Positions 14,421 through 59,869 of a DNA stretch of 61,080 nt are shown piece after piece. The translations under genes and the position numbers were made by a program. Under the pieces are notes generated by a model. That model was not told the DNA's origin. It did not search any database and saw only the letters and a list, made by a program, of their open reading frames with translations. The first letter of the stretch is position 1; the number at the start of each line of letters is the position of its first letter. Source of the stretch: a virus (lineage: Duplodnaviria > Heunggongvirae > Uroviricota > Caudoviricetes); IMG/VR virus record IMGVR_UViG_3300037067_005176, positions 1 through 61,080 of that record, one strand, 5' to 3'.

Positions 14421-14492
14421 TACCCAGAGCAGGAATTGCACCTACATCACAGAGTTCGTTACTCCACATTCTATTTATTGAACTATCCGGGC
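14421..14492 (-). tRNA. Degenerate tRNA-Arg(ACG)
   Basis: Loop TAACGAA lacks U33; T-loop TGCAATT. Confidence 0.45.
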
Positions 14493-14495
14493 TTC

Positions 14496-14566
14496 AACCG
14501 CAACTCAGAATCGCACTGATGTCTCAATCATACAAGATCGCATAATAACTTTTATACTAGTGCGGC
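14496..14566 (-). tRNA. Degenerate tRNA-Thr(TGT)-like
   Basis: Acceptor GCCGCAC/TTGCGGT, loop CTTGTAT, altered T-loop. Confidence 0.4.
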
Positions 14567-14575
14567 GTATTTTAA

Positions 14576-14646
14576 AGCCTAAGGAGGGAGTTGAGCCCAC
14601 GTTTCTTGTTTACGAAACAAGTGTACTACCGTTGTACTACTCAGGC
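14576..14646 (-). tRNA. tRNA-Thr(CGT)
   Basis: CTTGT-TTCGTAA-ACAAG. Confidence 0.7.
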
Positions 14647-14816
14647 ATATTCAAACTATTTATAAAATAAAACTAATCACTTTTATTAAACCGATAATAA
14701 AAATTGAAAAAATCACTATCGCCGTCGTTATAGCAGGAACACCGAATATAATCCGATCTTCCCACTTACCAAATATGTAATCATGTCCAAAAAAGCTCAT
14801 AACTATCTCCAATTTA

Positions 14817-14889
14817 TCGCCGCAGTAGAATTTGAACCTACATGCAGAGTTTCCTAAACTCTGCATCTATCCTGTTAAATTATACAGCG
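14817..14889 (-). tRNA. tRNA-Pro(AGG)-like, atypical
   Basis: CGCTGTA/TGCGGCG acceptor, AGAGT-TTAGGAA-ACTCT, GGTTCAAATTC. Confidence 0.45.
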
Positions 14890-14894
14890 GAAAC

Positions 14895-15080
14895 TTGAAT
14901 GACTTTTCAGATTACAACATCTAACGCAGGAAGAATGTTGATAAACGAATATTGATAAAATAATGAAGATAAAAAAGCGTTAAGAATGTTGAAACATAAT
15001 CTTTATCGGTCAAGCATTTTTGTTGTTTTCCGTTAGGAAAACAGGTACGAGAGCATGTGTTCTCTTACTCAGTCATTCAA
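14895..15080 (-). ncRNA. Putative structured RNA with pyrimidine-rich TCAAYATTC repeats
   Basis: 10-bp perfect terminal stem TTGAATGACT/AGTCATTCAA, internal hairpins, begins 1 nt after the stop of the upstream gene. Confidence 0.6.
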
Positions 15081-15081
15081 A

Positions 15082-15567
15082 TTAAAAACTAACTTCGATC
15101 TTTGTGTTGCCATTGAACTCTTCAACAGTATCAAGCAATTTCTCAAGACTTAGTTCAGCAGTCTTGATATGCTTCTGAATCTCTTCGTAGGAAACTTGAA
15201 CATTCACTTCAGCATAAGTAACAGTGTTTGTTCTGTAATCAGTATTCTCACGAGTTGTTGTATCCGTTGGGATTGATCTCAAGAAAGAAATCAAGGACTT
15301 AGCCTCTTCAATCTTTACAAGAGTTGAATAGATCGACTTGTCACCTTTTGCACCAGCATTCGCATTTACAATTGCGGTTTTCAATTCAATCAAGTCGCTT
15401 TTCTTCTTTGTGTATTCAAGAAGCTTGTTCTGAACGTCAATCTTTTCAGAGATTGAATTACGTCCAGCATCATATTGATTATGATGGATGATCTCATTAC
15501 CCAATGTGGAAATTTCACCAACTAACTTATTCTTCAAGTTGAGAGCCTTTCTCAAAGTAATATTCAT
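15082..15567 (-). CDS. Coiled-coil protein resembling DIP1984 family
   Basis: TLRKALNLKNKL...LIELKTAIVNAN...VEEFNGNTKIEV pattern; SD GAGG before MNITL. Confidence 0.55.
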   Translation of the reverse strand: MNITLRKALNLKNKLVGEISTLGNEIIHHNQYDAGRNSISEKIDVQNKLLEYTKKKSDLIELKTAIVNANAGAKGDKSIYSTLVKIEEAKSLISFLRSIPTDTTTRENTDYRTNTVTYAEVNVQVSYEEIQKHIKTAELSLEKLLDTVEEFNGNTKIEVSF

Positions 15568-15749
15568 ACAAACCTCATTTATAGGAAATAGGTCTCTTGC
15601 CATATTTCTCAAGTTGTTTATTCAATTTTTCAATTTCTTTTTTACGATCTTTACGGGCTTTTACCGTATTGTAAACGAATAGAATTGCTGTTACACAAGT
15701 TATCGCAATGATTGCATTTATAAGTAAACTCATTCTATCCTTTAATATA

Positions 15750-15823
15750 AAGCGGGGGTTGGATTCGAACCAACGACACCTGAGCTTATGAGGCTCGGAA
15801 GCTGACCACTGTTACACCACGCA
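15750..15823 (-). tRNA. tRNA(CAT), Met/fMet-like
   Basis: Loop CTCATAA, unpaired 1:72. Confidence 0.7.
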
Positions 15824-15836
15824 ATTTCTAACTTAG

Positions 15837-15913
15837 TCGTGGAGGTGGGACTCGAACCCACACATAGAACCTTATAAGAGCCCCTGCCTGATACCATCGG
15901 CTATTGCTCCACG
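15837..15913 (-). tRNA. tRNA-Ile(TAT)
   Basis: GGGCT-CTTATAA-GGTTC; 3 extra nt between acceptor and D arm. Confidence 0.65.
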
Positions 15914-15949
15914 ATAATTTAATTTCTAGTAATCAATTGTTCATCATAA

Positions 15950-16023
15950 TAGCGCGTGTAGGAGTCGAACCTACAACAATTCGGGTAGAAGCCGAGTACT
16001 CTGTCCAATTGAGTTAACGCGCC
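15950..16023 (-). tRNA. tRNA-Arg(TCT)
   Basis: TCGG-CTTCTAC-CCGA. Confidence 0.85.
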
Positions 16024-16028
16024 GTAAA

Positions 16029-16301
16029 TTACTTCCGCATATACTTGTGATCATAGTTTTCTGAATTTTTATCAAGATATTGTTTACCATCTTTAATAAA
16101 ATCATAAACATTTGATACCTCTTCAAGCTTATTAATTAAAATTATTTCTTCCAAATTATTTGTTATTAACGCATCACCAATAAATCTTTTGTTTTTTCTT
16201 CTAAACTTTTTATTAGCAATGCTTTTATCTTCGCTCTCACCATTTCTTAAGCCACTTTTTGTGATTGAAATGATTGGCGTGTATCGGCTTGACCTTGTCA
16301 T
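16029..16301 (-). CDS. Small basic hypothetical protein
   Basis: MTRSSRYTPI...EDKSIANKKFRRK; preceded by its own promoter at 16325-16354. Confidence 0.6.
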   Translation of the reverse strand: MTRSSRYTPIISITKSGLRNGESEDKSIANKKFRRKNKRFIGDALITNNLEEIILINKLEEVSNVYDFIKDGKQYLDKNSENYDHKYMRK

Positions 16302-16324
16302 TTTAATTCCTTAAACAATTAAAA

Positions 16325-16354
16325 CAAATATAATTAAATTTCCAGTTTTGTCAA
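16325..16354 (-). promoter_or_regulatory. Early promoter TTGACA-N16-TATATTTG
   Basis: Direct motif match. Confidence 0.6.
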
Positions 16355-16378
16355 TTTTAAATTTAATTTTTTTAAAAA

Positions 16379-16451
16379 TACCTTTGAAGAGATTCGAACT
16401 CTTACTTTATGGCGTTAGAAGACATTGACTCTGCCTTTGGTCTACAAAGGC
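16379..16451 (-). tRNA. Putative amber suppressor tRNA (CTA)
   Basis: GCCTTTG acceptor, stem ATGTC/GCCAT (one mismatch), loop TTCTAAC giving anticodon CUA, T-arm AAGAG-TTCGAAT-CTCTT. Confidence 0.6.
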
Positions 16452-16455
16452 ATAA

Positions 16456-16526
16456 TGGGCATACACAGAGTCGAACTGTGATCCGATGCTTAAAAGGCAC
16501 CTAGTCTACCATTGACATATACACCC
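16456..16526 (-). tRNA. tRNA-Lys(TTT)
   Basis: GGTGC-CTTTTAA-GCATC. Confidence 0.85.
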
Positions 16527-16529
16527 GTA

Positions 16530-16602
16530 AGCAGAATGTGGGAATCGAACCCGCCTCATCAGATTGGAAGTCTGAGATAATAAGCCACTATATGAATTCC
16601 GC
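16530..16602 (-). tRNA. tRNA-Gly(TCC)
   Basis: TCAGA-CTTCCAA-TCTGA. Confidence 0.85.
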
Positions 16603-16611
16603 ATAAACTTA

Positions 16612-16712
16612 GAGAACCCCCTAGTGAAGGCCGAAGTTTCAATTCAACCATCCTGGAGAAATCCCGGCAAGGACTTAGCTTTTAAACGATTGCCGTCGTT
16701 GTAAGCGTTCTC
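16612..16712 (-). ncRNA. Unidentified multi-stem RNA with loop-loop pairing
   Basis: Closing stem GAGAAC/GTTCTC; hairpin loops CGGCAA and TTGCCG are complementary. Confidence 0.55.
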
Positions 16713-16735
16713 AGTTTCTTTGTTTTATAACTTAG

Positions 16736-16807
16736 TGGAGCGTAAGGGAATCGAACCCTTATAATCTGCGTGCAAGGCAAATGTAATAGCCATTATACGA
16801 ACACCCC
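16736..16807 (-). tRNA. tRNA-Ala(TGC)
   Basis: TTTGC-CTTGCAC-GCAGA, G3:U70. Confidence 0.85.
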
Positions 16808-16825
16808 ATATTCTATTTATCTTAG

Positions 16826-16898
16826 TACTCGGTGAAGGAGACGATCCTTCCTCTCAGCTTTATCAGAGCCACGTAATCTACCCATATACTAACCGAGC
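16826..16898 (-). tRNA. tRNA-Ile(GAT)
   Basis: TGGCT-CTGATAA-AGCTG. Confidence 0.75.
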
Positions 16899-17033
16899 AT
16901 AATATTATAACAAGAACGTTTTTACTCAACTACAATTATCCTAGTGTATAAACGGCCTGCTTGCAACCAGGAGTTTCAGGAATGAACTTTACAGATGATC
17001 TTTCTGAGATACCATTCATCTTTCTTGTTATTA

Positions 17034-17106
17034 TCAGCCTATCCGGATTTGAACCGAAACCGCCTCGCCCCAAACGAGCCATGCAACCAGATAACACTTT
17101 AGGCTG
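17034..17106 (-). tRNA. tRNA-Pro(TGG)
   Basis: CTCG-TTTGGGG-CGAG. Confidence 0.8.
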
Positions 17107-17119
17107 TTAAATTTTAATA

Positions 17120-17202
17120 AGGAAAGTGAAGGAATCGAACCCTCGACTGTTACATCGGCGACGGTGTTCAAAACCGTTTGCTAACCTTTAGCGCCACCTT
17201 CC
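17120..17202 (-). tRNA. tRNA-Ser(TGA)
   Basis: ACGGT-TTTGAAC-ACCGT, long variable arm. Confidence 0.85.
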
Positions 17203-17205
17203 ATA

Positions 17206-17277
17206 AGTCGTATGTAGGAATCGAACCAACTCATAACAGTTTTGCAGACTGCGGCATTCCCACTTTGCTAATACGAC
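17206..17277 (-). tRNA. tRNA-Cys(GCA)
   Basis: GCAGT-CTGCAAA-ACTGT, U73. Confidence 0.85.
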
Positions 17278-17367
17278 ATAAACATAAATAATACTGCGTT
17301 CTCTGTGCTCATCATTGACGCCTGACGGATGCTTTTAACTAGCAGGAGCTCTCGTATTATTTATTAG

Positions 17368-17443
17368 TGCAAGGTCTGAGAATCGAACTCAGTTCTTTGG
17401 ATTTTCAGTCCAACGCTTGAATCACCAGACTAGCTCACCTTGC
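17368..17443 (-). tRNA. tRNA-Phe(GAA), 5' end overlaps endonuclease ORF
   Basis: TTGGA-CTGAAAA-TCCAA. Confidence 0.85.
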
Positions 17444-18063
17444 ATGACTTTATCATACTCATTCTTTTCAATCAAAATGATTTTTATGTTAGGATGTTGA
17501 TCCATAACAGCTTTCATTTTTGCTTTATCATTTCCCCACCAATATCCTTTTATTTCAAGGTATAAATCATATGTAGGAAGATATAAATCAGGAGTATAAT
17601 GTTTATTTTTACCATCAAGTTCATATTGAATAACATCTTTGTGAACTTTAGGTTTAATCCATTCAATATTCAATTCATCAAGTTTCTTTGCAACATTTAA
17701 TTCCCAAGTACCTTGAAGCTTTTGTCCTTTATAGTCAAACCATTTGCATTTACCGCCTCTATTATGAAGACTTTGTTCAATGCTAAGTTTGTCTCTTGCA
17801 ATATCACCCATTTTACTTGGTATAAAAGTCCCATTTAAAATTTTACTTTGGATAATTTCCGAATTCTTTTTAGCAATGTTTTTAATGACATCGGACGTAT
17901 CTTTTGTTTGTCCTTTCCAATGACTTGTATAACCTCGACTAACAGTTTTCAACTTATGCAGATTGCCTTCTTCTGTATGAGCTCTCCATTTGTGAGCTAA
18001 CAACGATTTAGTGCTTTTACATTCCTTGTTACATATTTCACATAATATCATTGATTTCTCCAT
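17422..18063 (-). CDS. PD-(D/E)XK putative homing endonuclease with N-terminal C2H2 finger
   Basis: CEIC...HKWRAH; GTWE, YTPDLYL, YLEIKGYW; late promoter TATAAATA at 18071-18078. Confidence 0.8.
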   Translation of the reverse strand: MEKSMILCEICNKECKSTKSLLAHKWRAHTEEGNLHKLKTVSRGYTSHWKGQTKDTSDVIKNIAKKNSEIIQSKILNGTFIPSKMGDIARDKLSIEQSLHNRGGKCKWFDYKGQKLQGTWELNVAKKLDELNIEWIKPKVHKDVIQYELDGKNKHYTPDLYLPTYDLYLEIKGYWWGNDKAKMKAVMDQHPNIKIILIEKNEYDKVMQGELVW

Positions 18064-18078
18064 TTTATTATATTTATA

Positions 18079-18117
18079 TTAACAGGCACGCGTACACACT
18101 AGTTATACCAAGAGGGC
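18079..18117 (-). pseudogene. Orphan 5' half of a tRNA truncated in the anticodon loop
   Basis: GCCCTCT-TG-GTAT..GTAC-G-CGTGC-CTG followed directly by the endonuclease promoter. Confidence 0.5.
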
Positions 18118-18250
18118 GCAATTTAAAAACTGATTGAACTAAAGGTTGCTTCCTTTCACTACAGTAACATTTTCTATTAGCACAAAAGCCGTTACCACCG
18201 CGGCTCTTGACAAATGTTGCTTGCATTTGCATAGTGTGTTATCAGTCTTA

Positions 18251-18331
18251 AGCGGGTATCGGGATTCGGGATTCGAACCCGAACTATAACATTGGTAATG
18301 TCATATGCTAACCGTTGAACACCATACCCAC
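18251..18331 (-). tRNA. tRNA-Gly(ACC)-like with 7-nt duplication (probably pseudo)
   Basis: TGACA-TTACCAA-TGTTA; ATCCCGA duplicated after T-arm. Confidence 0.5.
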
Positions 18332-18426
18332 GAAAATTAAAAATTTTTCCGGTGACGGGCACCGTACTTGAAACAGCATTGAATAGCCTGTTACCACTAC
18401 TGATGGATGAGTTTTAAATCTCATAA

Positions 18427-18506
18427 TGCCCAGAGAGAGACTTGAACTCTCACACTTTCGTAACGGCTTCTTAGACCGTCGTGTCTGCCAATTCCACCAT
18501 CTGGGC
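18427..18506 (-). tRNA. tRNA-Leu(AAG)
   Basis: Clean cloverleaf, ACGGT-CTAAGAA-GCCGT, variable arm. Confidence 0.8.
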
Positions 18507-18603
18507 GTTTCTAAACTCGAATGTTAGAAGTTGCACCTAAAGATGAACTGAATCATCGTCTGAATCCATCGGTCCTTACGGAAGATCATTATAACAATTT
18601 TAG

Positions 18604-18677
18604 CTGGGACGACAGGCCTCGAACCTGTAGGTCAACTGAGTAACAGTCAGTCCGCTTACCAATTTGCGTACATCCCA
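18604..18677 (-). tRNA. tRNA-Asn(GTT)
   Basis: ACTGA-CTGTTAC-TCAGT. Confidence 0.85.
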
Positions 18678-18794
18678 AAACTTGTAGGTGACTTTTGATA
18701 CTGAAACGAGTACCACCTCCATCATCTCGTAACAATAGTTGTAGTGACTAGTATTTCAAACTATTGCTTTCCTTTTCAGAAACTTTTTAACTTA

Positions 18795-18861
18795 TAGCGG
18801 AGCTAGGAATTGAACCTAGAAGCATGTGGTTATGAGCCACTGCGGCACCGTGCTCCCCGCG
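18795..18861 (-). tRNA. tRNA(CAT), fMet-like with shortened D arm
   Basis: CGCGGGG acceptor, GTGG-CTCATAA-CCAC, only 67 nt. Confidence 0.6.
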
Positions 18862-19007
18862 TCAAAATAAAAGGTGACTGTCTTGTATATTATAGTTTCC
18901 TAGGTCCATAATACACCTTTGATTAGTTCTTGGTTTGAATTTCTGCCCGTCGGCTCATTCTTCATTCCATCCGGGAACAGCCTACCGGATTTCAGAACCA
19001 AATTTTA

Positions 19008-19081
19008 TAGCGAGAGGTAGGATTTGAACCTACGGCCTTCAGCTTATGAGGCTGACGAGCTAACCACTGCTCTACTCCGCG
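19008..19081 (-). tRNA. tRNA-fMet(CAT)-like
   Basis: CGCGGAG..., TCAGC-CTCATAA-GCTGA. Confidence 0.8.
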
Positions 19082-19096
19082 TCGTTAATTTAACTA

Positions 19097-19168
19097 TGCC
19101 GATACAAGGAATCGAACCTTGTTTCATCGATTAAGAGTCGATTACATCACCATTTATGTTTTATCGGC
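19097..19168 (-). tRNA. tRNA-Lys(CTT)
   Basis: ATCGA-CTCTTAA-TCGAT. Confidence 0.85.
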
Positions 19169-19185
19169 AATGATAATCTTTATAA

Positions 19186-19258
19186 TAGCGGTAGCGGGAT
19201 TTGAACCCACAGCGTCTCCGTGAAAGGGAGATGTTTTAACCATTTGAACTATACCGCC
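19186..19258 (-). tRNA. tRNA-Glu(TTC)
   Basis: TCTCC-CTTTCAC-GGAGA. Confidence 0.85.
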
Positions 19259-19276
19259 ATAATAACAAAAACTTAA

Positions 19277-19348
19277 CGAAGTGTGCGGGAGTCGAACCCG
19301 CGTCGAATCATAGACAGTGACCCATAATAACCGTTATACCAACACTCC
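19277..19348 (-). tRNA. tRNA-Asp(GTC)
   Basis: GGTCA-CTGTCTA-TGATT, G73. Confidence 0.85.
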
Positions 19349-19358
19349 AAATAACTTA

Positions 19359-19430
19359 AGCCCGATGAGGGAATCGAACCCCCTTATCCTGATTACAAAA
19401 CAGGTGTAATGACCGGTATACGAATCGGGC
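19359..19430 (-). tRNA. tRNA-Thr(TGT)
   Basis: CCTG(T)-TTTGTAA-(T)CAGG. Confidence 0.85.
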
Positions 19431-51304: not shown

Positions 51305-51712
51305 TTAGGAAAAATACAATTTTAATGAGGAGTTAACTTTATTAGATTTTAATTTATATCTCTTTAATAACTCTTGTCTAATGAGGTATAAATTTTCCTC
51401 ATTCAGGCACTTAACAATTGTCTTCATATCGAAAAATTCTTTATACAAATATACTGCAGACTCAACAATATTGATGTCTCCACATAAATGCAATTTCTTT
51501 AAAAGAATATTCAAAATGTAAAACTGTTCATTGCAAGCTCGCTTCTTTGAAATAATTTTTAAAATATCATTTGGTAAACGAGTCTCGGGATCAATGTCAG
51601 TCAAATCAATTCCGGAATCCTGAATTTTTTTCAAAAATTCAGTTCGTGACATTATTTCATTTATATCAGATTTATCAATTATTTCTTCAAATGTTCCCAT
51701 TATCAACCTCAT
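51305..51712 (-). CDS. Possible late transcription coactivator (gp33-like)
   Basis: Synteny and C-terminal SLKLYF clamp-binding-like motif. Confidence 0.4.
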   Translation of the reverse strand: MRLIMGTFEEIIDKSDINEIMSRTEFLKKIQDSGIDLTDIDPETRLPNDILKIISKKRACNEQFYILNILLKKLHLCGDINIVESAVYLYKEFFDMKTIVKCLNEENLYLIRQELLKRYKLKSNKVNSSLKLYFS

Positions 51713-52899
51713 TCAAATGCTATGTTTTTTACGGATTTGCCATTCTTAAGAATGTTTACGACAGCTTCATCAACTAAATTTTTTGGACGTGGTTTTTGAT
51801 CTTCTTCACCATCGACAATATTGAATAAGCGTTGCTTGAATTTATCACACCCAACTGAAATTTTCATGCCTTTTAATCCATAACGACTCTTAAGTAAAAA
51901 AAATGTAAACATACCTGCAGCAGCTAATTCTGGAGTTTCGGTTACACCGAAAATTACGTCAGCTTTCGTTGTTTGTCCAAACGAATCTGCGGTATCCGTC
52001 AAATCAATTTCTGAAGCGGTTGAACCACCTCTATTTGTTTGTGCGCCAGAAACTACAGGAATTGAATATTCCATTCCAATTGCTCGAGTCTGTCCTGCAA
52101 CTAAACGAAGAACATCATTTGAATTTAAGTTGGAATTTTGTTTACCATTTGGCATCATACAGCCAATATAGTCAATAAACATAATCTCTGGAACGAATTT
52201 CTTCTTTTGTTTCAAATCCTTAAATAATTGCCTAAGGTGATTTGCGCAAATTGTATATTCTGGAAATTCTTTGATAATAAGTTTCTGTTTTACGACTTTT
52301 TTGATTGCTTCAAATCTTCTCATGAAAGCTTCTTTACTCATTGTTCTCAATTGAGCTTTGTCAGCATCCATAAGATTGAACATAATACGATTTGCAATTT
52401 TATCTTCAGAATCTTCGAACGTTACATATAAAACATTTTTCCCTTGCATGATCATGTTTGTAGCTAAAGAACACATGATTAATGTTTTACCAACGTTAGT
52501 ATTATGACTTACCATATCTTCAGTATAATATTTATGCGATTCGTTAGCTACCTCTAAATCAACAACGTCTTCAACATCTTCGCAATCATGAACTTTTATA
52601 TCATGAAATTTACCATCCTTGCATAAAATTGTGTGAAGCTGCTCATTTAATCTCCAAGCAGGAACCCAGCCATCGCATGTTTCAAAAAGATGATCATAAC
52701 TTACTCTAATTTTCTTGTTATTGCATTCAATAATAAATAGTTTTTTAATGCCCTTTTCAACATATCTAACAACTTTAGTAAATCCTGAAGGGGAATCAAC
52801 TTCAACATTAATACCAGCATTTAAAAGTGCCTCAACGTCTTTTATTTCAACCTCTTCATAGTAATAATCTGAATCTTTCAATAATCCCATTTGTGTCAT
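51709..52899 (-). CDS. Replicative helicase gp41, C-terminal part, preceded by split intein C fragment (52501-52899)
   Basis: Intein blocks SYDHLF, VVDLEV, SHN|T; extein TNVGKT, YVTFE, IDY, AQTNR, DSFG. Confidence 0.9.
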   Translation of the reverse strand: MTQMGLLKDSDYYYEEVEIKDVEALLNAGINVEVDSPSGFTKVVRYVEKGIKKLFIIECNNKKIRVSYDHLFETCDGWVPAWRLNEQLHTILCKDGKFHDIKVHDCEDVEDVVDLEVANESHKYYTEDMVSHNTNVGKTLIMCSLATNMIMQGKNVLYVTFEDSEDKIANRIMFNLMDADKAQLRTMSKEAFMRRFEAIKKVVKQKLIIKEFPEYTICANHLRQLFKDLKQKKKFVPEIMFIDYIGCMMPNGKQNSNLNSNDVLRLVAGQTRAIGMEYSIPVVSGAQTNRGGSTASEIDLTDTADSFGQTTKADVIFGVTETPELAAAGMFTFFLLKSRYGLKGMKISVGCDKFKQRLFNIVDGEEDQKPRPKNLVDEAVVNILKNGKSVKNIAFE

Positions 52900-52952
52900 T
52901 TAATTCATTCTCCCACATACAAAAGTATATTAAATCGTTTGATTCTATAATT

Positions 52953-53567
52953 TCATTTTTTATATCGTATCCTAACTTTTGTATCTTTTGTTACACACCC
53001 TGCTAAGAATAATGAAAGTGATTTTTCATGGAATCCACCTTCAATCAAATCATCAATTGATTTAATTCCTGAAGGAACAACTTTATCAGTAAGTGAAAAA
53101 GAATTAAATAATCTTTCAGGATCTTCAAAGAAGTCTAAACCAATTCCTGTATTAAACGAGAATGAAAGCGACTCCATTATCTCATCAGGAACATCTCCTG
53201 CGGGTTTAATGTCTGGGCTCTTTAACGATTGAATCAATTTATCAGCGTTATTCCAAAGAAGTTTTCTTTTAAAATAATCTTCAATTTCGGACATCATAAA
53301 AGGCGTTTCATATTCTTCAGAATTTAATGATAAACATTCGCTAAACGCTTTTACAGTTGAATCATCTTTAACGAAAGTTTTAAATTCTACTTCATTAGGA
53401 AACTTATCGTATTTGTCAGAAAATGCCAAAACATTCTTGATGATATTCTGATTAGAAAAATCAGCATCAAAAATTTCAACTTTTAAAAATGGAAAAACTT
53501 TATCTCTTATTTCAGGGTCTCTAAAAAGAAGCTTGATTATTTGTTTTTCATACAACGAGGGATTCAT
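52953..53567 (-). CDS. Replicative helicase gp41, N-terminal part, ending in 14-aa split intein N fragment (52956-52997)
   Basis: ...EGGFHEKSLSLFLAG|CVTKDTKVRIRYKK*; start MNPSLY after SD GGAGG. Confidence 0.9.
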   Translation of the reverse strand: MNPSLYEKQIIKLLFRDPEIRDKVFPFLKVEIFDADFSNQNIIKNVLAFSDKYDKFPNEVEFKTFVKDDSTVKAFSECLSLNSEEYETPFMMSEIEDYFKRKLLWNNADKLIQSLKSPDIKPAGDVPDEIMESLSFSFNTGIGLDFFEDPERLFNSFSLTDKVVPSGIKSIDDLIEGGFHEKSLSLFLAGCVTKDTKVRIRYKK

Positions 53568-53667
53568 AATCCTCCATAAAAATATTTCAAATTCAAATAT
53601 AATAATAAAACTAAAAAAGGTCAAAAGATTTTCCACAGTTGACCTAAATTATTTTTTTTAATTTTTC

Positions 53668-54972
53668 TTATGCTGAAAGTAAGTCTTCTAATCCGCCGGC
53701 CTTGACATCCATTTCTCTACCAACGAAACTATATTTCTTTGCTAAGAACTGTTCGAAGTCAGTGTTCTTCAAAATAGGGATCCAAAATTCAGAACAATAA
53801 ATATCAGCTTCTTTCCAGCTTTTATCATCAGTAATGCATGGTCTTGAGTATCTACCTTGCTTAGGGGCAATAACACAACCATGTTCAATGGCATCATCAA
53901 GTAATCCATAAAACATATCAAGGCCTCCATCATGATTCATACGATACTTAAGCTTAGAAAATTCAATTGCTTTTCGTCCTTTCTTAGCTGTAGCTGTAAT
54001 AATTTTACCAACAATTTCGTTAGATTCTTTATCCTTAGCACCGCCCATACACATAACAATACCATCAGAATTAAAGTATAATCTTTTTCCTCCTGGGACT
54101 GAAAGGGGGTCACCAAATCCACCAGTATTTGCATAAACATGATTAATGACGAAATATGTCATATCAGACTCAGCCATAATATTTGCAAGTTCGTTTTTCC
54201 AGAAAGGTAATGACATATCTCTTGCGGTTGAACCTTCCGCGGCTTTATCCAAAATAACTTGAGAAACAAGTCGTCCCCAAGAATCGAAAAGAATAAAAGT
54301 ATTTTCTCTCTGGTCTCTTGTTTTACCTTCAGATATTTCTGAAATTGTTTGTTTAATTTTAGCGATTTCGCCAGTTTGAAGTACTGGTAACTTATTTGTA
54401 TTAATACCAAAGGCTTCTGCGAGATCCCAATCCCAAGAACGTTCGGTATCAATTACCATACATTCCATGCCTTTGCGTTGGGCCTCTCTCAAAATAGAAA
54501 GACCGATCATTGAATTGTGATTGATAACTCCGTTAGGACTTAAATACCAATGAGGGGATGGAATTGCAATATCATATACATAATCTTCAACGAAAAATTC
54601 TTTTGATAATATTTTTTTAATTCCAAATTTAGTCTGAATTTCTTTTGCATCAATTGCTTTTACTGAATTTCCAAATGAATCTTGGTACAAATGTCCTTCC
54701 GCAACTTTCATAATTCCACAATCTTCAATTTCAATTTTGATGATTCGTGTAATTCCTTTTTTTACCAATGCATCAATTTCAACTAAATCACTATCGGCGG
54801 TTTCTACAAAAAATCCTTTTGGGATGTTTAGTATATCACCTGTAAGGTCTTTTACTTTATTATCAAAATTGAACAACTTAAATAATTGTTCATACGTTAA
54901 TTCAATTGGAATTAATTCTGAATCATTTTCATCTGTAAAACCACCAATATCAGTAAAATGCTTATAAGCCAT
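53668..54972 (-). CDS. uvsX: UvsX/RecA recombinase, C-terminal part, preceded by split intein C fragment (54514-54972)
   Basis: AEGHL, VYDIAI, NHN|S; extein IDTE, FDSWG, INHVY, PGG. Confidence 0.9.
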   Translation of the reverse strand: MAYKHFTDIGGFTDENDSELIPIELTYEQLFKLFNFDNKVKDLTGDILNIPKGFFVETADSDLVEIDALVKKGITRIIKIEIEDCGIMKVAEGHLYQDSFGNSVKAIDAKEIQTKFGIKKILSKEFFVEDYVYDIAIPSPHWYLSPNGVINHNSMIGLSILREAQRKGMECMVIDTERSWDWDLAEAFGINTNKLPVLQTGEIAKIKQTISEISEGKTRDQRENTFILFDSWGRLVSQVILDKAAEGSTARDMSLPFWKNELANIMAESDMTYFVINHVYANTGGFGDPLSVPGGKRLYFNSDGIVMCMGGAKDKESNEIVGKIITATAKKGRKAIEFSKLKYRMNHDGGLDMFYGLLDDAIEHGCVIAPKQGRYSRPCITDDKSWKEADIYCSEFWIPILKNTDFEQFLAKKYSFVGREMDVKAGGLEDLLSA

Positions 54973-55029
54973 AATTATTCTCCTTTCATTCATAACCTAT
55001 CATACTTCTGCGTAGTAGGTTTAATTTAT

Positions 55030-56323
55030 TTATTCCTGTAAAAATTTTATACATTCATCGATACATTTTTGTTTATTATTCTTCCAATCTGATTCCCAGA
55101 TCGTTAAAACTTTATAACCTTGTGATTCGGCGATGTTTATCTTCTTTTTGTCGTTATCCCAAATCTGTTGTACTGTTGTTAATTGTTTCGAAAAATTAAA
55201 ATTTGATTCAGCTGTATATTTATTCGGATTTGCATGCCAATAATCGCCATTGAATTCTATGATTTTATTACCAACATTAACATCATAAAAATAGTGAAGA
55301 GCTGAAGAATGATTCAAACATAGTTGTGAATTTAAATCAAAGCCATTGGACAATAAAACTGTATATAGTTCCTTTTCAGGTTTGGAAATAAACGGGGATG
55401 CAATATTCATATTTCGCATTGCATTTATTCCACCGAATGCTTTAGCTTTATTAATCCTAGATTTTTCTTCATCAGATTTAGTATTTAATGTTTCAATCCA
55501 CTTTTGTTGTCTTTCAGTCCATTTCTTTAAACCATCTTCACCATATTTCTTTATCAATTTTTCTTTAGAAAAAGTTATTTGTCGATCTTTCAACTTTTCT
55601 TTAGCTTCTTCTTTTGAATAACCTTTATCAAGCCACCATTGTAATTTAGATGAAGATCTATTTTTTACATGTTCTAAGCCAAGTATCATGTTTTTGAAAT
55701 TTTTCTTTACCAATTTCTTTACCATGCTTTTTAATCATATTTTCGAGTGTTATTGCGCATGCCCGTTTTCTTTCATTTAATTCATTTTCATTTGAAAATA
55801 ATTCAGGTCTAAATGAATTTTTTAATTTATTAAGATCTTCATACTTTTTAGTGCCTTCTTCAATTCCATGTTTTTCAATAAAATATTCCTTTTTAACACC
55901 AGCATAAGATTGTTTTTTGCAATATAAATCCCATTTGGCTTTACCAACAATCTCGCCATGTTTTTTAATCATATTCTTCAAAGTCACAGCGGACTTTGAA
56001 TTCTTTTCATTGAATAAGTCTTCGCCAGTTTTACCATATCTCAATTTATATGATTCTAAACTATTACTTTTATTATATTTAGTAATCAATAAATTATATC
56101 TTTCAACATAATCACAGTCAACATCATATTTAGAAAGACCAGCAATCACTGATATCATTGCATTGGTTATAAAGCTTCCATCATAGTTATAATATTTAAT
56201 AAAGTTATATATTTTTTTATATATCGATTTAGTTAAAATGTCTTTATTACATATCGATTTAAATGCAGTTAAACCGATAAATCTTTTTAAAGTCATTCTT
56301 TGTTTCTTTTGACCTCGTGACAT
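55030..56323 (-). pseudogene. Vsr-like homing endonuclease between UvsX halves, split by a +1 frameshift near 55690
   Basis: Repeated (M)IKKHGxExG motifs in both ORFs; SKPE, YD, IIEFNGDYWH, IWESD nuclease domain. Confidence 0.75.
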
Positions 56324-56328
56324 ATAGA

Positions 56329-56365
56329 TTCTCCTTTAATTATAGATAATATAATTAAAGGAGAA
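56329..56365 (-). promoter_or_regulatory. Perfect 16-bp hairpin sequestering the endonuclease SD
   Basis: TTCTCCTTTAATTATA/TATAATTAAAGGAGAA. Confidence 0.7.
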
Positions 56366-56380
56366 CAGATTGTGCATTTA

Positions 56381-56656
56381 TTAAACGTTTTTCAAAAATA
56401 AATTTATGTTTTTTTCATCTTCTTTGTTCACATAAATTTTTATCTTCTCATCTCTAAAAAAACATTTTCCCAAGGCACTGTCTGCGGAGATCTGACTAAT
56501 CATTCCTTTTGCAATTCCGCCGCGTACACGTCCATTAAAAAGTAAATTTAAAACTATCACATTGGTTGAAATAAATTCACGAATCTTTGTTCGTTCAACC
56601 ATTTTATCACTTAAAGTCTTGCTCTTCATTAAAGTATTATATATTGATTCTGCCAT
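56381..56656 (-). CDS. uvsX: UvsX/RecA recombinase, N-terminal part, ending in 27-aa split intein N fragment (56384-56464)
   Basis: ISTN..LNLLFNG..GGI..G...SADSALGK|CFFRDEKIKIY...; late promoter 56712-56719. Confidence 0.9.
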   Translation of the reverse strand: MAESIYNTLMKSKTLSDKMVERTKIREFISTNVIVLNLLFNGRVRGGIAKGMISQISADSALGKCFFRDEKIKIYVNKEDEKNINLFLKNV

Positions 56657-56732
56657 CTTAACCTCCAAATTTTCATTCATGGATACGAGACTTCAGCGTC
56701 CGCTCCATTAGTATTTATATGGTTATAAACGA

Positions 56733-56775: not shown

Positions 56776-56976
56776 TTAACCAAGTAGTAAGTTTGGAGAA
56801 TCTTCAACATATACCATCGTTGCACCATTTTCAACAACTACCGATTTTATCCGCAATCCCAATGATCTTAATGAAATATTTGCAACTTCAGTGTTTGCGA
56901 TAAAATCTTCAGTTAATATCTTATTTACAATTGATTCATGAGTCTTACTTCCAACTAATACAATTTTCATTTTCAC
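56776..56976 (-). CDS. Hypothetical protein
   Basis: 66 aa ORF overlapping polymerase stop. Confidence 0.5.
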   Translation of the reverse strand: MKMKIVLVGSKTHESIVNKILTEDFIANTEVANISLRSLGLRIKSVVVENGATMVYVEDSPNLLLG

Positions 56977-59369
56977 CTCTTGATAAATTTCGAAAGTTTT
57001 GATTCATTTAAAATTATACCCTTATCAACATCACACCAACCTAAAACAACCCACATTCTTTCAATCACCGATAAAAATGTTTTTCTAAATTGTTCATCAT
57101 AATCAATCTTAAACAAATCATGAAATTCAATGGGATAATTTCCAATCCAAGCAATCGTATCAAATGAAAACTTATTATCTTTATACACCGATAAATATTT
57201 AATCTTTGAACCGTTAGCAATAGGCATCAATGGATACTTAAATTTATTTATAATATAATTATAATTAAGAGAAGCTTTAGCAGTCATCAATGCTCCGGAT
57301 TCGTATTTAACACCATGTTGTAAATAATAACTTATTGGTTTTGTAACAAATTTTGAATATTCCTGAATACTTGATTTTCTTGCAATTAAATCAAAAGACT
57401 GTTTCTTAAATTGTTTTTTAATATCATTCAAAAGAATAATATTAAGCTCTTTATTTGTATTATCCAAAATATCTTTTACAACTAGCATCAATTCTTGCTT
57501 ACAAAATGCTGGAGTATCAGACTTTTTAAGCTCAACTCCGGTAACTTTAATTTTAGGAGGATCATAAACATCATCTTCATTTTTCAAAAGTTCTGTGATA
57601 TATTTCTTCTTAGCTAAAATGAACTGTTTAAGTATATAACCTTCACGTTTGAAAACGATAACTTGTTTCATGTCATTATTGTTTGACTTAATTGTAAGAA
57701 TCTTTGAAAAGAAAGGATCTAAGAAAGCTTCCATCTTTTCAAAGAATTCCATATCATCCATTTTAGGACAATACTTTTGGTAAATTTCATCAAGACAGTA
57801 ATAGTTAGAGTCAGTATCAATTAACACAACGATGTTGTTATTAATCTTCTGAGGTAAACCATCAGGACCTGGGATAAATTGTCCAAGAACCTTTTCACCG
57901 ATCTTGTGGAAATTGTCCTTCACATATGAATTTGCGCAAGCTGCCAAATAACGAACTGTAACACGGCCACCACGAGTAATTGCACGGGCATTATCAACAT
58001 CGTAAAAATGGAAATACTTATTTGCTAAAACACCATACATTGAGTTAATCAAAATTTTACGAATATGTTGTTGTGAATCATAATAAGCAGCAAGAGCTTT
58101 ATCGCCAACAGCATCTGCCTCAGATTTTAATTTCTTGAAATATTTTCTTTCATCAAAAATCTGTTTAACGATTGTTGGTAAAACCGCATTTTCCGTGCGT
58201 TTGTAATAAACTCCATTAACCTCTGAACGAATCAACATACCAGAATCAATAAGTTCCTTAGAAGGCTTTATAACCTTGGTTTCAGGAGAAATATTGTACT
58301 GCATTACTTGGTGTGGATAAGAAGAAAGAATATCATTTGAAATTACTTTTTTCCACAATCCTGGATATGCTTCAACATGTCCGCCTTTAACATAAAAAGG
58401 TTCGAAGTCTTTTTCGTTTTCTTTACAGTTTTGGTAATAAGGCAAACCAAATTTATCTTTTACAATAAAATATCTTTCATCATGCCACCAATCATTTGAT
58501 GTTCTGTTTCTATCGCTCATTACAAGATTTCTCTCATGCATAAAGCGCAAGATGTATCCTTCAATAATAGCAATAGAACTGAACACTCTGTCAAATGGTG
58601 TTAATGAATCGTAACACATAATGATTGTTAGTTCAATGAATTTCTTTTTGAGTTCCATTTCCCAAACAAGAAGAACGTCCTGAATGTTATACTCAACGAA
58701 TGTGTTCCAATCTGTTTTATAAATCTGATTGATCGCTCCATCAAGATCTAACTTTCCTTTTTTTAATTCATGCATAGAAACGAATTGCAATGAATATGAT
58801 TCAAGTGTTGTGAAGGTAAAGTTTTTATACAATCCCATATAATCAAGAATTGTGATTCCTGCTAATTCATAATAATGACCTTCGTGCTTCTTATTTACAG
58901 GATTGATAAGAGGTTTTTGTTTTAATTTCTTTAACGGAGAAAGTAATAACGCAAGTTCTTGCAATTCAATATCACCTTCTACCAAATTATTAATTCTATT
59001 GACAATGTAAGGAATGTCAAAGTTCTGAACATTCCAACCTGTAATAAAATCAAACTTTTGTTTTCTGAACCATCTTACAAAATATTCAAGCATTGCAAGT
59101 TCATTTGAAAAATAGTGATATGATTCAACTAATTTTGATTTACCTGTGTACTGAGTTGTTCCAAATGTTATAACATTTTCGGTTCTTGAATCTTTTACAG
59201 TAATAAGATTAATTGGATATTTCGCTTCAGTTGGTTTAGGGAAGTCGGATGATACATAACAACTGGATGTATAATCAATCCATCGTTTTTCTTCTTCGTC
59301 CCAAACTTCATAATCTCCAGAATTATATGTTTGCTCAAATAGATTCATTTCTATTTCAAATTCTTTCAT
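56973..59369 (-). CDS. Family B DNA polymerase (gp43-like), large C-terminal part
   Basis: FPKP, GWNVQNFD, YNIQDV, DILSSYP, KILINSMYG, DTDS, KKKY. Confidence 0.95.
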   Translation of the reverse strand: MKEFEIEMNLFEQTYNSGDYEVWDEEEKRWIDYTSSCYVSSDFPKPTEAKYPINLITVKDSRTENVITFGTTQYTGKSKLVESYHYFSNELAMLEYFVRWFRKQKFDFITGWNVQNFDIPYIVNRINNLVEGDIELQELALLLSPLKKLKQKPLINPVNKKHEGHYYELAGITILDYMGLYKNFTFTTLESYSLQFVSMHELKKGKLDLDGAINQIYKTDWNTFVEYNIQDVLLVWEMELKKKFIELTIIMCYDSLTPFDRVFSSIAIIEGYILRFMHERNLVMSDRNRTSNDWWHDERYFIVKDKFGLPYYQNCKENEKDFEPFYVKGGHVEAYPGLWKKVISNDILSSYPHQVMQYNISPETKVIKPSKELIDSGMLIRSEVNGVYYKRTENAVLPTIVKQIFDERKYFKKLKSEADAVGDKALAAYYDSQQHIRKILINSMYGVLANKYFHFYDVDNARAITRGGRVTVRYLAACANSYVKDNFHKIGEKVLGQFIPGPDGLPQKINNNIVVLIDTDSNYYCLDEIYQKYCPKMDDMEFFEKMEAFLDPFFSKILTIKSNNNDMKQVIVFKREGYILKQFILAKKKYITELLKNEDDVYDPPKIKVTGVELKKSDTPAFCKQELMLVVKDILDNTNKELNIILLNDIKKQFKKQSFDLIARKSSIQEYSKFVTKPISYYLQHGVKYESGALMTAKASLNYNYIINKFKYPLMPIANGSKIKYLSVYKDNKFSFDTIAWIGNYPIEFHDLFKIDYDEQFRKTFLSVIERMWVVLGWCDVDKGIILNESKLSKFIKR

Positions 59370-59461
59370 AATATCCTTTATATAAATTTCTAAGATTGAT
59401 AATTCTTTTATGAATTCTTTCAGATTTTGTTTTTAAAAAATTGTCAAATGAAATTTCAATA

Positions 59462-59869
59462 TCAATGTTTTTTTCTTACTTTTATTTTATGATTTAAATT
59501 ATATTTTGATGAACCAGCCACCTCAATGTCAATATAGCATGTATTGAAATCGGTTGCTTTAGGTTGCAACTTAACGCCAGAATATTTTGAATGCAAAAAC
59601 TTTACGAGTTCATCCAAATCAGATTCACAAAGCTGTGCTCTTGTTGAAGATAATGATGTAAGATTTTTCTTTGACTCTGCTTTGCATAAAACCATTGAAT
59701 CTCCGTTAATATTTTTCAACGGTGATTGGCCAGTCTTATCTTTCATGTAATATGAATGCTCAAACTCAACTTCTTTAAACTTATCCGAATCAGTCTCTCT
59801 TAAATATATTTTACTAAGCTTTGGATCAAACCAAATGTTTTTAAAACCTACGATTTTTTGTTCACTCAT
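59462..59869 (-). CDS. Family B DNA polymerase, N-terminal part up to ExoI (DIEV)
   Basis: N-terminal domain ending YIDIEVAG followed by a 16-aa basic tail. Confidence 0.85.
   Translation of the reverse strand: MSEQKIVGFKNIWFDPKLSKIYLRETDSDKFKEVEFEHSYYMKDKTGQSPLKNINGDSMVLCKAESKKNLTSLSSTRAQLCESDLDELVKFLHSKYSGVKLQPKATDFNTCYIDIEVAGSSKYNLNHKIKVRKKH

What the first reader, a model, noticed from the sequence alone, without database searches (positions are those of the whole stretch)
59253..59512. DNA polymerase split inside ExoI, with what looks like a catalytically dead, miniaturised split intein at the break
Seen: PolB is encoded as two ORFs broken inside the exonuclease I region (DIEVAG / SSDFPKP), 92 nt apart, the second with its own SD (AAAGGA). 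The N part carries an extra tail SSKYNLNHKIKVRKKH that aligns without gaps to the neighbouring IntN tails CVTKDTKVRIRYKK and CFFRDEKIKIYVNK but has Lys at the Cys1 position. The C part starts with 39 extra residues (MKEFEIEMNLFEQTYNSGDYEVWDEEEKRWIDY...) resembling the start of the helicase IntC (EEVEIKDVEALLNAGINVEVDSPSGFTKV), with no block B His or terminal HN. Inference: an atypically split intein lost its splicing chemistry and persists as a roughly 55-aa basic/acidic clasp that non-covalently assembles a two-subunit polymerase. I know of no description of this.
Basis: partly seen in the sequence, partly recalled or inferred. Interest (0 to 1): 0.9.

Follow-up and report, generated by a model that had tools for sequence, protein, structure and literature searches.

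The report
Split phage polymerase with mobile clasp
A phage DNA polymerase gene is cut in two inside its proofreading motif by a mobile cassette: a decayed homing endonuclease flanked by the two halves of a small, non-splicing, possibly intein-derived peptide module that occurs, whole or split, in over a hundred phage polymerase lineages.

Summary
PolB is encoded on the minus strand as a 135-aa N part (59462-59869) and a 798-aa C part (56973-59369), 92 nt apart, broken just after the ExoI DIE motif.

- **The insert.** A freshwater contig about 96% identical in the flanks has nine bases (Glu-Ala-Glu) in place of 59244-59512. That defines a 269-nt insert.
- **The spacer.** The 92-nt spacer is the 3' scar of an HNH homing endonuclease. 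The same endonuclease family sits intact between the halves in at least four related loci.
- **Not a one-off.** Tail plus leader form a module of about 58 aa (hairpin, helix, hairpin). It appears in 108 polymerase clusters: 65 contiguous and 43 split in the same hairpin turn. The split state is scattered over the polymerase tree. This phage sits inside a module-less clade.
- **No splicing chemistry.** The residue aligned to intein Cys1 is Lys in the family consensus, and blocks B, F and G are absent. No ribozyme signal was found.
- **Intein ancestry is plausible, not shown.** Inteins rank first in PDB profile searches (E 0.15-0.3) and make up 13 of 47 weak fold matches. hhalign, Pfam and Foldseek give nothing.

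The best reading is a mobile, non-splicing cassette giving a two-subunit polymerase held together by strand complementation. The closest precedent is the Aeh1 NrdA/mobE tails.

The parts
59462..59869 (-). PolB N part (135 aa): N-terminal domain piece, first exonuclease strand with the catalytic DIE, then the 16-aa tail and stop codon
   Evidence: ORF. It is 72-76% identical to P0002 and P0003. P0003 continues unsplit into the exonuclease domain.
59244..59512 (-). The inserted cassette as bounded by the empty allele (269 nt in place of 9 nt)
   Evidence: a contig of run X8 joins 59243 to 59513 with 9 other letters between. Run X4 has the same loose end. Module-less relatives read DIEVAG, three residues, FPKP.
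59465..59512 (-). Tail: strand 1 of the module's first hairpin (basic)
   Evidence: The tail is conserved in P0002, L005, L006, L007 and L008. It aligns to strand 122-127 of the AlphaFold model of contiguous P0019.
59370..59461 (-). 92-nt spacer between the two ORFs
   Evidence: No terminator-like site was found between the ORFs.
59356..59448 (-). 3' scar of an HNH homing endonuclease gene (last ~30 codons and stop, overlapping the start of the C part)
   Evidence: The translation of 59359-59475 matches residues 280-302 of the 306-aa endonuclease of L005: 12 of 23 identical, E 5e-4. That endonuclease hits phrog_655 at E 9e-42.
59374..59379 (-). Shine-Dalgarno-like AAAGGA for the C part
   Evidence: Read directly from the sequence.
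59244..59369 (-). Leader (42 codons): strand 2, helix and second hairpin of the module (acidic)
   Evidence: The leader is conserved in 43 split and 65 contiguous clusters.
56973..59369 (-). PolB C part (798 aa): leader, the rest of the exonuclease domain, polymerase domain
   Evidence: Pfam PF03104 and PF00136. It is the only PolB in the 189-kb record.

Best explanation
A mobile, non-splicing cassette sits in the ExoI motif of this T4-like phage's only family B polymerase.

The cassette consists of a module of about 58 aa (hairpin, short helix, hairpin) that is interrupted in the turn of its first hairpin by a free-standing HNH homing endonuclease gene. In this phage the endonuclease has been deleted down to a scar of about 30 codons. 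The gene therefore remains as two cistrons, probably co-transcribed, each with its own ribosome-binding site.

The N part supplies the catalytic DIE strand and the basic strand 1 of the module. The C part supplies the acidic strand 2, the helix, hairpin 2 and the rest of the enzyme.

Inferred: the two chains assemble without a covalent bond. Three contacts would contribute: pairing of the module hairpin, insertion of the DIE strand into the exonuclease sheet, and the N-terminal-domain contacts.

The module has no splicing residues. It is colinear with the first ~55 residues of inteins, and is probably, though not demonstrably, a relic of an atypically split intein like those in the adjacent gp41 and UvsX genes.
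For: **Split and insert**
- The empty allele shows the insert is exact, with flanks about 96% identical.
- The endonuclease scar is shown.
- Intact endonucleases of one family lie between the halves in L001, L005, L006 and L008. L007 has none. The P0005 and P0025 contigs carry ORFs of 297 and 261 aa at that place.

**Family**
- 103 profile hits resolve to 65 contiguous and 43 split forms (108 module-bearing rows in all) that begin at one profile column.
- Conservation is at the protein level: D 93%, W 87%, S 87% and Y 93% at fixed columns.

**Fold**
- In its polymerase context the model has mean pLDDT 88 (80-90 over the module strands) and shows the hairpin-helix-hairpin, with the split in turn 1.

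**Mobility**
- The split state needs 18 changes among 19 rows on the tree, no better than shuffled labels.
- This polymerase is sister to module-less P0006 (90% identical) inside a module-less clade.
- P0004 and P0005 are 77% identical downstream, but their modules are only 50% identical.

**Intein link**
- Inteins are the top two PDB hits of the N-half profile, aligned from intein residue 2.
- 13 of 47 VIA-align matches are inteins, mostly aligned from their first residues.
- The module HMM against the window's joined gp41 intein gives p 0.002 in a shuffle test.

**Against an RNA-level event**
- No Rfam match and a fold z-score of +1.47.
Against: - Assembly of the two chains is inferred, not shown.
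- The shuffle test owes its score mostly to the basic tail and does not preserve local composition.
- Since 65 clusters carry the module unsplit, it may serve the polymerase in some way unrelated to any clasp.
- The ancestral state of the clade cannot be read from a sample that was gathered with the module's own profile.
Confidence: 0.62

Rival explanations
1. The architecture and mechanism are the same, but the module is an ordinary accessory insertion of some phage PolBs with no intein ancestry. A homing endonuclease simply invaded its most permissive loop, and the likeness to HINT N-lobes is convergence on a common small fold.
For: - No significant sequence or profile match to any HINT family.
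- BRK and GYF domains match the model as well as inteins do.
- The module is contiguous in 65 of 108 clusters.
- There is no conserved nucleophile at either junction.
Against: - Inteins rank first in two PDB profile searches, with the expected register.
- Inteins are strongly over-represented among the weak fold matches.
- The module sits in a catalytic motif, is present or absent between near-identical alleles, and is split at the same structural point as the 14-aa IntN intein of gp41 in the same genome.
Confidence: 0.3
2. The polymerase gene is broken and non-functional, or exonuclease-dead: a pseudogene left by endonuclease damage.
For: - The endonuclease itself is decayed.
- The record is only 69% complete, so a second polymerase could lie elsewhere.
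Against: - Both ORFs are intact, with ribosome-binding sites.
- It is the only PolB found in the record.
- 43 clusters keep the same start column and conserved leader residues, which indicates purifying selection.
- Identical sequence occurs in two unrelated habitats.
Confidence: 0.05
3. The two parts are joined into one chain, either at RNA level (a small self-splicing intron or ribosomal bypass) or by an unknown protein ligation chemistry.
For: - Removing the 269 nt would restore a frame of normal length.
- A five-base TCATC repeat flanks the insert.
- Ser residues lie next to both junctions in this phage.
Against: - No group I or other Rfam match at E up to 10.
- The RNA folds worse than its shuffles, z +1.47.
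- Tail and leader are conserved as protein, and the contiguous forms keep the frame open through the whole insert.
- The junction residues are not conserved, and the C-terminal Asn and blocks B, F and G are absent.
Confidence: 0.03

Closest known systems
Aeromonas phage Aeh1 NrdA-a/NrdA-b split by the HNH endonuclease mobE (Crona et al. 2011, PMC3045599)
   Same: An essential replication-related enzyme is cut into two cistrons by a free-standing HNH homing endonuclease. The new C- and N-terminal tails arose with the insertion, are absent from unsplit alleles, and are proposed as protein interaction domains instead of splicing.
   Different: Here the tails are the two halves of a conserved, foldable module that also exists unsplit in 65 clusters. 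The cassette recurs across more than 100 polymerase lineages, the endonuclease is already a scar in this phage, and the function of the tails is untested.
Fractured genes: split inteins with a free-standing endonuclease between the halves (Dassa et al. 2009, PMC2677866)
   Same: The gene order is N half, endonuclease, C half on one strand, at a catalytic motif of a replication enzyme. Their model includes later loss of the endonuclease. The UvsX and gp41 genes next door fit this class.
   Different: The PolB element has no nucleophile, no block B, and no blocks F or G with a terminal Asn, and totals about 58 aa. It cannot splice.
Atypically split inteins with a very short IntN (PolB16 OarG 15 aa, PMC10189870; VidaL, PDB 6vgv)
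   Same: The break falls right after the first strand, leaving a short N tail. VidaL and PolB16 OarG appear among the weak sequence and fold matches.
   Different: PolB16 OarG sits at the DTD motif, not ExoI, and is an active class 1 intein with a 168-aa IntC.
Split gp43 of Aeromonas phages 25 and 44RR (Petrov, Karam and co-workers, as summarised in PMC2677866)
   Same: A T4-like PolB encoded as two cistrons, in one case with an endonuclease gene between them, forming a two-subunit enzyme.
   Different: From my own knowledge, that split lies in the polymerase half of the protein rather than in ExoI. The endonuclease there is GIY-YIG (PMC2677866). No conserved peptide module is described.

Membership tests
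Intein (HINT protein-splicing domain) | Cys, Ser or Thr as the first residue | tested here: not met
   The position aligned to Cys1 is Lys in the window. In the family it is Lys 44%, with Asn, Gln and Ser next.
Intein (HINT protein-splicing domain) | Block B (TxxH) and blocks F and G ending in (H)N, followed by a Cys, Ser or Thr | tested here: not met
   The leader runs for 42 residues and ends CYVSSD before FPKP. No His-Asn is present, and the junction residues vary across the family.
Intein (HINT protein-splicing domain) | Complete HINT fold of about 130 aa or more | tested here: not met
   The module is about 58 aa. The model shows only hairpin, helix, hairpin.
Intein (HINT protein-splicing domain) | Homology of the module to the HINT N-lobe | tested here: inconclusive
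Intein (HINT protein-splicing domain) | In-frame insert in a conserved catalytic motif, sporadic among close relatives, tied to a homing endonuclease | tested here: met
   Empty allele, tree, and endonuclease or its scar between the halves.
Gene fractured by a free-standing homing endonuclease, with interaction tails (Aeh1 NrdA type) | Two cistrons of one enzyme separated by an endonuclease gene, with tails absent from the unsplit allele | tested here: met
   In this window the endonuclease is only a scar.
Gene fractured by a free-standing homing endonuclease, with interaction tails (Aeh1 NrdA type) | Tails needed for assembly or activity | not testable with these tools
   This needs co-expression and tail deletions.
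Group I intron | Ribozyme core detectable by a covariance model, and stable structure | tested here: not met
   No Rfam match at E up to 10. Fold z-score +1.47.
Family B DNA polymerase, T4/RB69 gp43 type | Exonuclease and polymerase domains with the ExoI DIE and DTDS motifs, and an RB69-like fold | tested here: met
   Pfam PF03104 and PF00136. A relative's N-terminal 400 aa matches RB69 gp43 at E 4e-27.

The most novel reading that the evidence does not exclude
The cassette represents a third way, besides RNA splicing and protein splicing, for a homing element to live inside an essential gene. On this reading a half-HINT peptide module, descended from an atypically split intein, travels with an HNH endonuclease into the ExoI motif of module-less polymerases. 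It neutralises the break by hairpin complementation. After the endonuclease is lost, it can fuse into a permanent extra domain of the polymerase.
Probability: 0.35. Interest if true: 0.8.

Novelty: new variant of a known kind. Interest (0 to 1): 0.66.

Why it matters
- **Evolution of selfish elements.** If the reading holds, inteins or intein-like elements can survive loss of all splicing chemistry. They would persist as small mobile protein modules that either stay in the host enzyme or hold its two halves together. That would be a new fate in the life cycle of selfish elements. It would also be a natural series of states (empty, endonuclease-bearing, scarred, fused) in one gene family.
- **Annotation.** Over 40 polymerase lineages are true two-subunit enzymes, so a short N-terminal PolB ORF next to a long one should not be called a pseudogene or a frameshift.
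- **Protein engineering.** A tail of about 16 aa that docks to a partner of about 40 aa without chemistry could be a compact non-covalent tag, if binding is shown.

Tried and rejected
- **Complex prediction** of the N part with residues 1-300 of the C part: no verdict (score 0.09). Not counted either way.
- **Group I intron or other RNA**: no Rfam match, and the RNA is less stable than its shuffles.
- **Pfam and PHROGs on the tail, leader and contiguous inserts**: nothing. A Pfam scan of all 102 members gave only scattered chance hits.
- **BLASTP of a contiguous insert against the gp41 IntC**: nothing.
- **hhalign of the module against four Ser1 DTD-site inteins**: probability 0.7%.
- **Foldseek against PDB with the module model**: no E below 1.
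- **Atlas feature search**: returned only PolB exonuclease clusters below 0.9.
- **Kelch hits in the PDB profile search**: summed repeats of one hairpin motif, each insignificant on its own.
- **The search for related loci in viral contigs**: found no relative for either part.
- **tblastn of three modules against 50,697 phage records**: no module-bearing cultured phage. The Desulfovibrio phage hit proved to have only a 10-residue loop.
- **Conserved Ser/Cys/Thr at position 1 and +1**: seen among the first dozen sequences, but it vanished in the full family.
- **RNA evidence**: no RNA holder of the stretch is listed, so expression could not be examined.

Full report
**What is in the sequence**

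On the minus strand, ORF 59462-59869 encodes 135 aa that end with the ExoI motif DIEVAG followed by a 16-aa basic tail and a stop. ORF 56973-59369 encodes 798 aa. It begins with an acidic leader, continues at FPKP with the rest of the exonuclease domain, and then carries the polymerase domain. The gap is 92 nt, and AAAGGA lies four bases before the second ATG. No terminator-like site separates the ORFs. This is the only PolB in the 189-kb virus record. The record is a T4-like phage from a groundwater metagenome, with a tRNA block, UvsX, gp41 and DHH genes.

**The insert is exact, and absent from near-identical alleles**

Close unsplit relatives (about 72-78% identical, P0003 and P0006-P0012) read DIEVAG, three residues, FPKP, with nothing extra.

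Laying public contigs on the region gave the same answer at DNA level. A freshwater contig joins 59243 to 59513 with nine other letters (Glu-Ala-Glu) between them, and its flanks have 1 and 4 differences in 68 and 71 bases. A wastewater contig has the same loose end.

The insert is therefore 59244-59512: 269 nt in place of 9. An independent contig of the likely source run spans the whole stretch without a difference. A landfill run holds identical pieces across the 3' junction.

**The spacer is an endonuclease scar**

- In L001, whose N part is 76% identical and has a near-identical tail (one Val/Ile difference), an HNH ORF follows the tail.
- In L005, L006 and L008, polymerases only 40-50% identical to this one carry a 269-306 aa ORF of the same family between the halves. 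It matches phrog_655, annotated as homing endonuclease, at E 9e-42. Its last codons overlap the start of the C part in L005 and L006.
- The contigs of P0005 and P0025 have ORFs of 297 and 261 aa at that place.
- L007, like this window, has only a short spacer.
- One frame of the window's spacer matches the last 23 residues of the L005 endonuclease (12 of 23 identical, E 5e-4). It ends in the same overlapping position relative to the C-part start.
- The genome holds at least eight further paralogues of this endonuclease.

**Tail and leader are the halves of a widespread module**

P0016 first showed the two peptides as one uninterrupted in-frame insert. A profile of tail, leader and anchors was searched against 1.84 billion representatives and found 103 proteins. 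Re-alignment together with the earlier hits gives three groups:

- 65 contiguous forms;
- 43 C parts that all start within a few residues of one profile column;
- 2 further contiguous forms with longer N termini (P0102, P0122).

Fixed columns are strongly conserved: an aromatic before a His, alternating hydrophobic and basic residues in strand 1, then YEV-aromatic-DE, a Trp, and Ser-Cys-Tyr.

AlphaFold2 of contiguous P0019 residues 1-400 (mean pLDDT 88) places a hairpin, a short helix and a second hairpin between the DIE strand and the next exonuclease strand. The natural split falls in the turn of the first hairpin. The rest of the model matches RB69 gp43.

Three tblastn queries found no module in 50,697 cultured-phage records.

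**The cassette is mobile**

- On a tree of the 330 residues downstream of the insert (96 rows), the split state needs 18 changes for 19 rows, no fewer than shuffled labels need.
- This polymerase is sister to module-less P0006 (90% identical, support 97), inside a clade of seven module-less and two split rows.
- The two split members of that clade, P0004 and P0005, are 77% identical downstream but only 50% identical in the module. P0004's module is no closer to P0005's than to that of P0074, a polymerase only 29% identical.
- By contrast, clearly vertical pairs keep module and polymerase identity alike: 84% against 85% for P0029 and P0030.
- Together with the 96%-identical empty allele, this argues that the whole cassette enters or leaves module-less alleles.
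- Caveat: the sample was gathered with the module's own profile, so deep ancestral states cannot be inferred.

**No splicing, no ribozyme**

- The residue aligned with intein Cys1 is Lys, both here and in the family consensus.
- The junction residues vary, there is no block B and no terminal Asn, and 58 aa cannot make a HINT fold.
- Rfam finds nothing at E up to 10.
- The 269-nt RNA folds worse than its shuffles, z +1.47.
- Protein-level conservation and the open frame of the contiguous forms exclude an intron.

**Is it intein-derived?**

For:
- The N-half profile's two best PDB hits are inteins (2lcj, 7oec), aligned from intein residue 2. The register matches strand 1, turn, strand 2 and helix. 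VidaL appears with the full profile.
- Inteins recur in the Foldseek and Atlas lists.
- The module HMM scores the window's own joined gp41 intein above 998 of 1000 shuffles.
- The element's way of life and its split point copy the gp41 intein of this genome, whose IntN is 14 aa.

Against:
- No score is significant.
- BRK and GYF domains match the model equally well.
- hhalign, Pfam and Foldseek give nothing.
- The shuffle test rests mainly on the basic tail.

I put intein ancestry near one half.

**How it most likely works**

- Shown: two cistrons, an endonuclease scar, a conserved module, and no splicing residues.
- Inferred: the chains assemble non-covalently. The basic tail (net +6) pairs as strand 1 with the acidic leader (net -9). 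The DIE strand completes the exonuclease sheet. The N-terminal domain halves add further contact surface.
- The complex-prediction job gave no verdict and is not used.

**Comparison with what is known**

- The closest described case is Aeh1 NrdA, where tails created by the mobE insertion are essential for the split enzyme (PMC3045599).
- Fractured genes with split inteins and free-standing endonucleases, including the endonuclease-loss step, were modelled by Dassa et al. (PMC2677866). That paper also summarises the split gp43 of Aeromonas phages.
- Atypically split inteins with a 15-aa IntN are known in PolB, but at the DTD motif (PMC10189870).
- I found no description of this ExoI module in five literature searches. 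That is not proof of absence.

**Verdict**

This is a new variant of endonuclease-fractured genes, with a conserved and possibly intein-derived peptide module.

Noticed in passing
window 51712-53648 (-): The gp41 helicase is split by an atypically split intein whose IntN is only 14 aa. The halves are 56 nt apart. PMC10189870 calls a 15-aa IntN the shortest characterised so far.
   Followed up: partly
window 53668-56680 (-): UvsX is split at the Walker A GK by a split intein (27-aa IntN; long IntC ending HN before Ser). Two adjacent ORFs lie between the halves (55030-55725 and 55658-56323). Both hit phrog_22677, and one also hits homing endonuclease families, so they look like one endonuclease gene broken in two.
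   Followed up: partly
G000:C1 7654-8157, 30615-30974, 43042-43488, 50320-50655 (inside the window) and four places beyond it: At least eight paralogues of the phrog_655-type HNH endonuclease are scattered over the genome, several with open frames of 200-324 aa. This phage is heavily colonised by the family that fractured its polymerase.
   Followed up: no
P0005 residues 520-635; P0090, P0105 and P0117 after their DTD motifs: Several related polymerases also carry Ser1 inteins, split or contiguous, at the DTD motif. This is the site of the published PolB16 OarG intein. P0005 is thus cut into at least three pieces.
   Followed up: partly
L004 4001-6028 (P0016): This contiguous-module polymerase ends early at 675 aa, before the DTDS motif, in a stretch that looks like another short tail. 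That suggests a further, different split site.
   Followed up: no
G000:C1:156234-156268: A 35-nt stretch, 86% identical to the region around the ribosome-binding site and start of the C part (about 59347-59381), occurs far away in the genome. It may be the 3' end of another copy of the endonuclease.
   Followed up: no
window 14421-19430 (-): A block of 19 tRNA genes.
   Followed up: no
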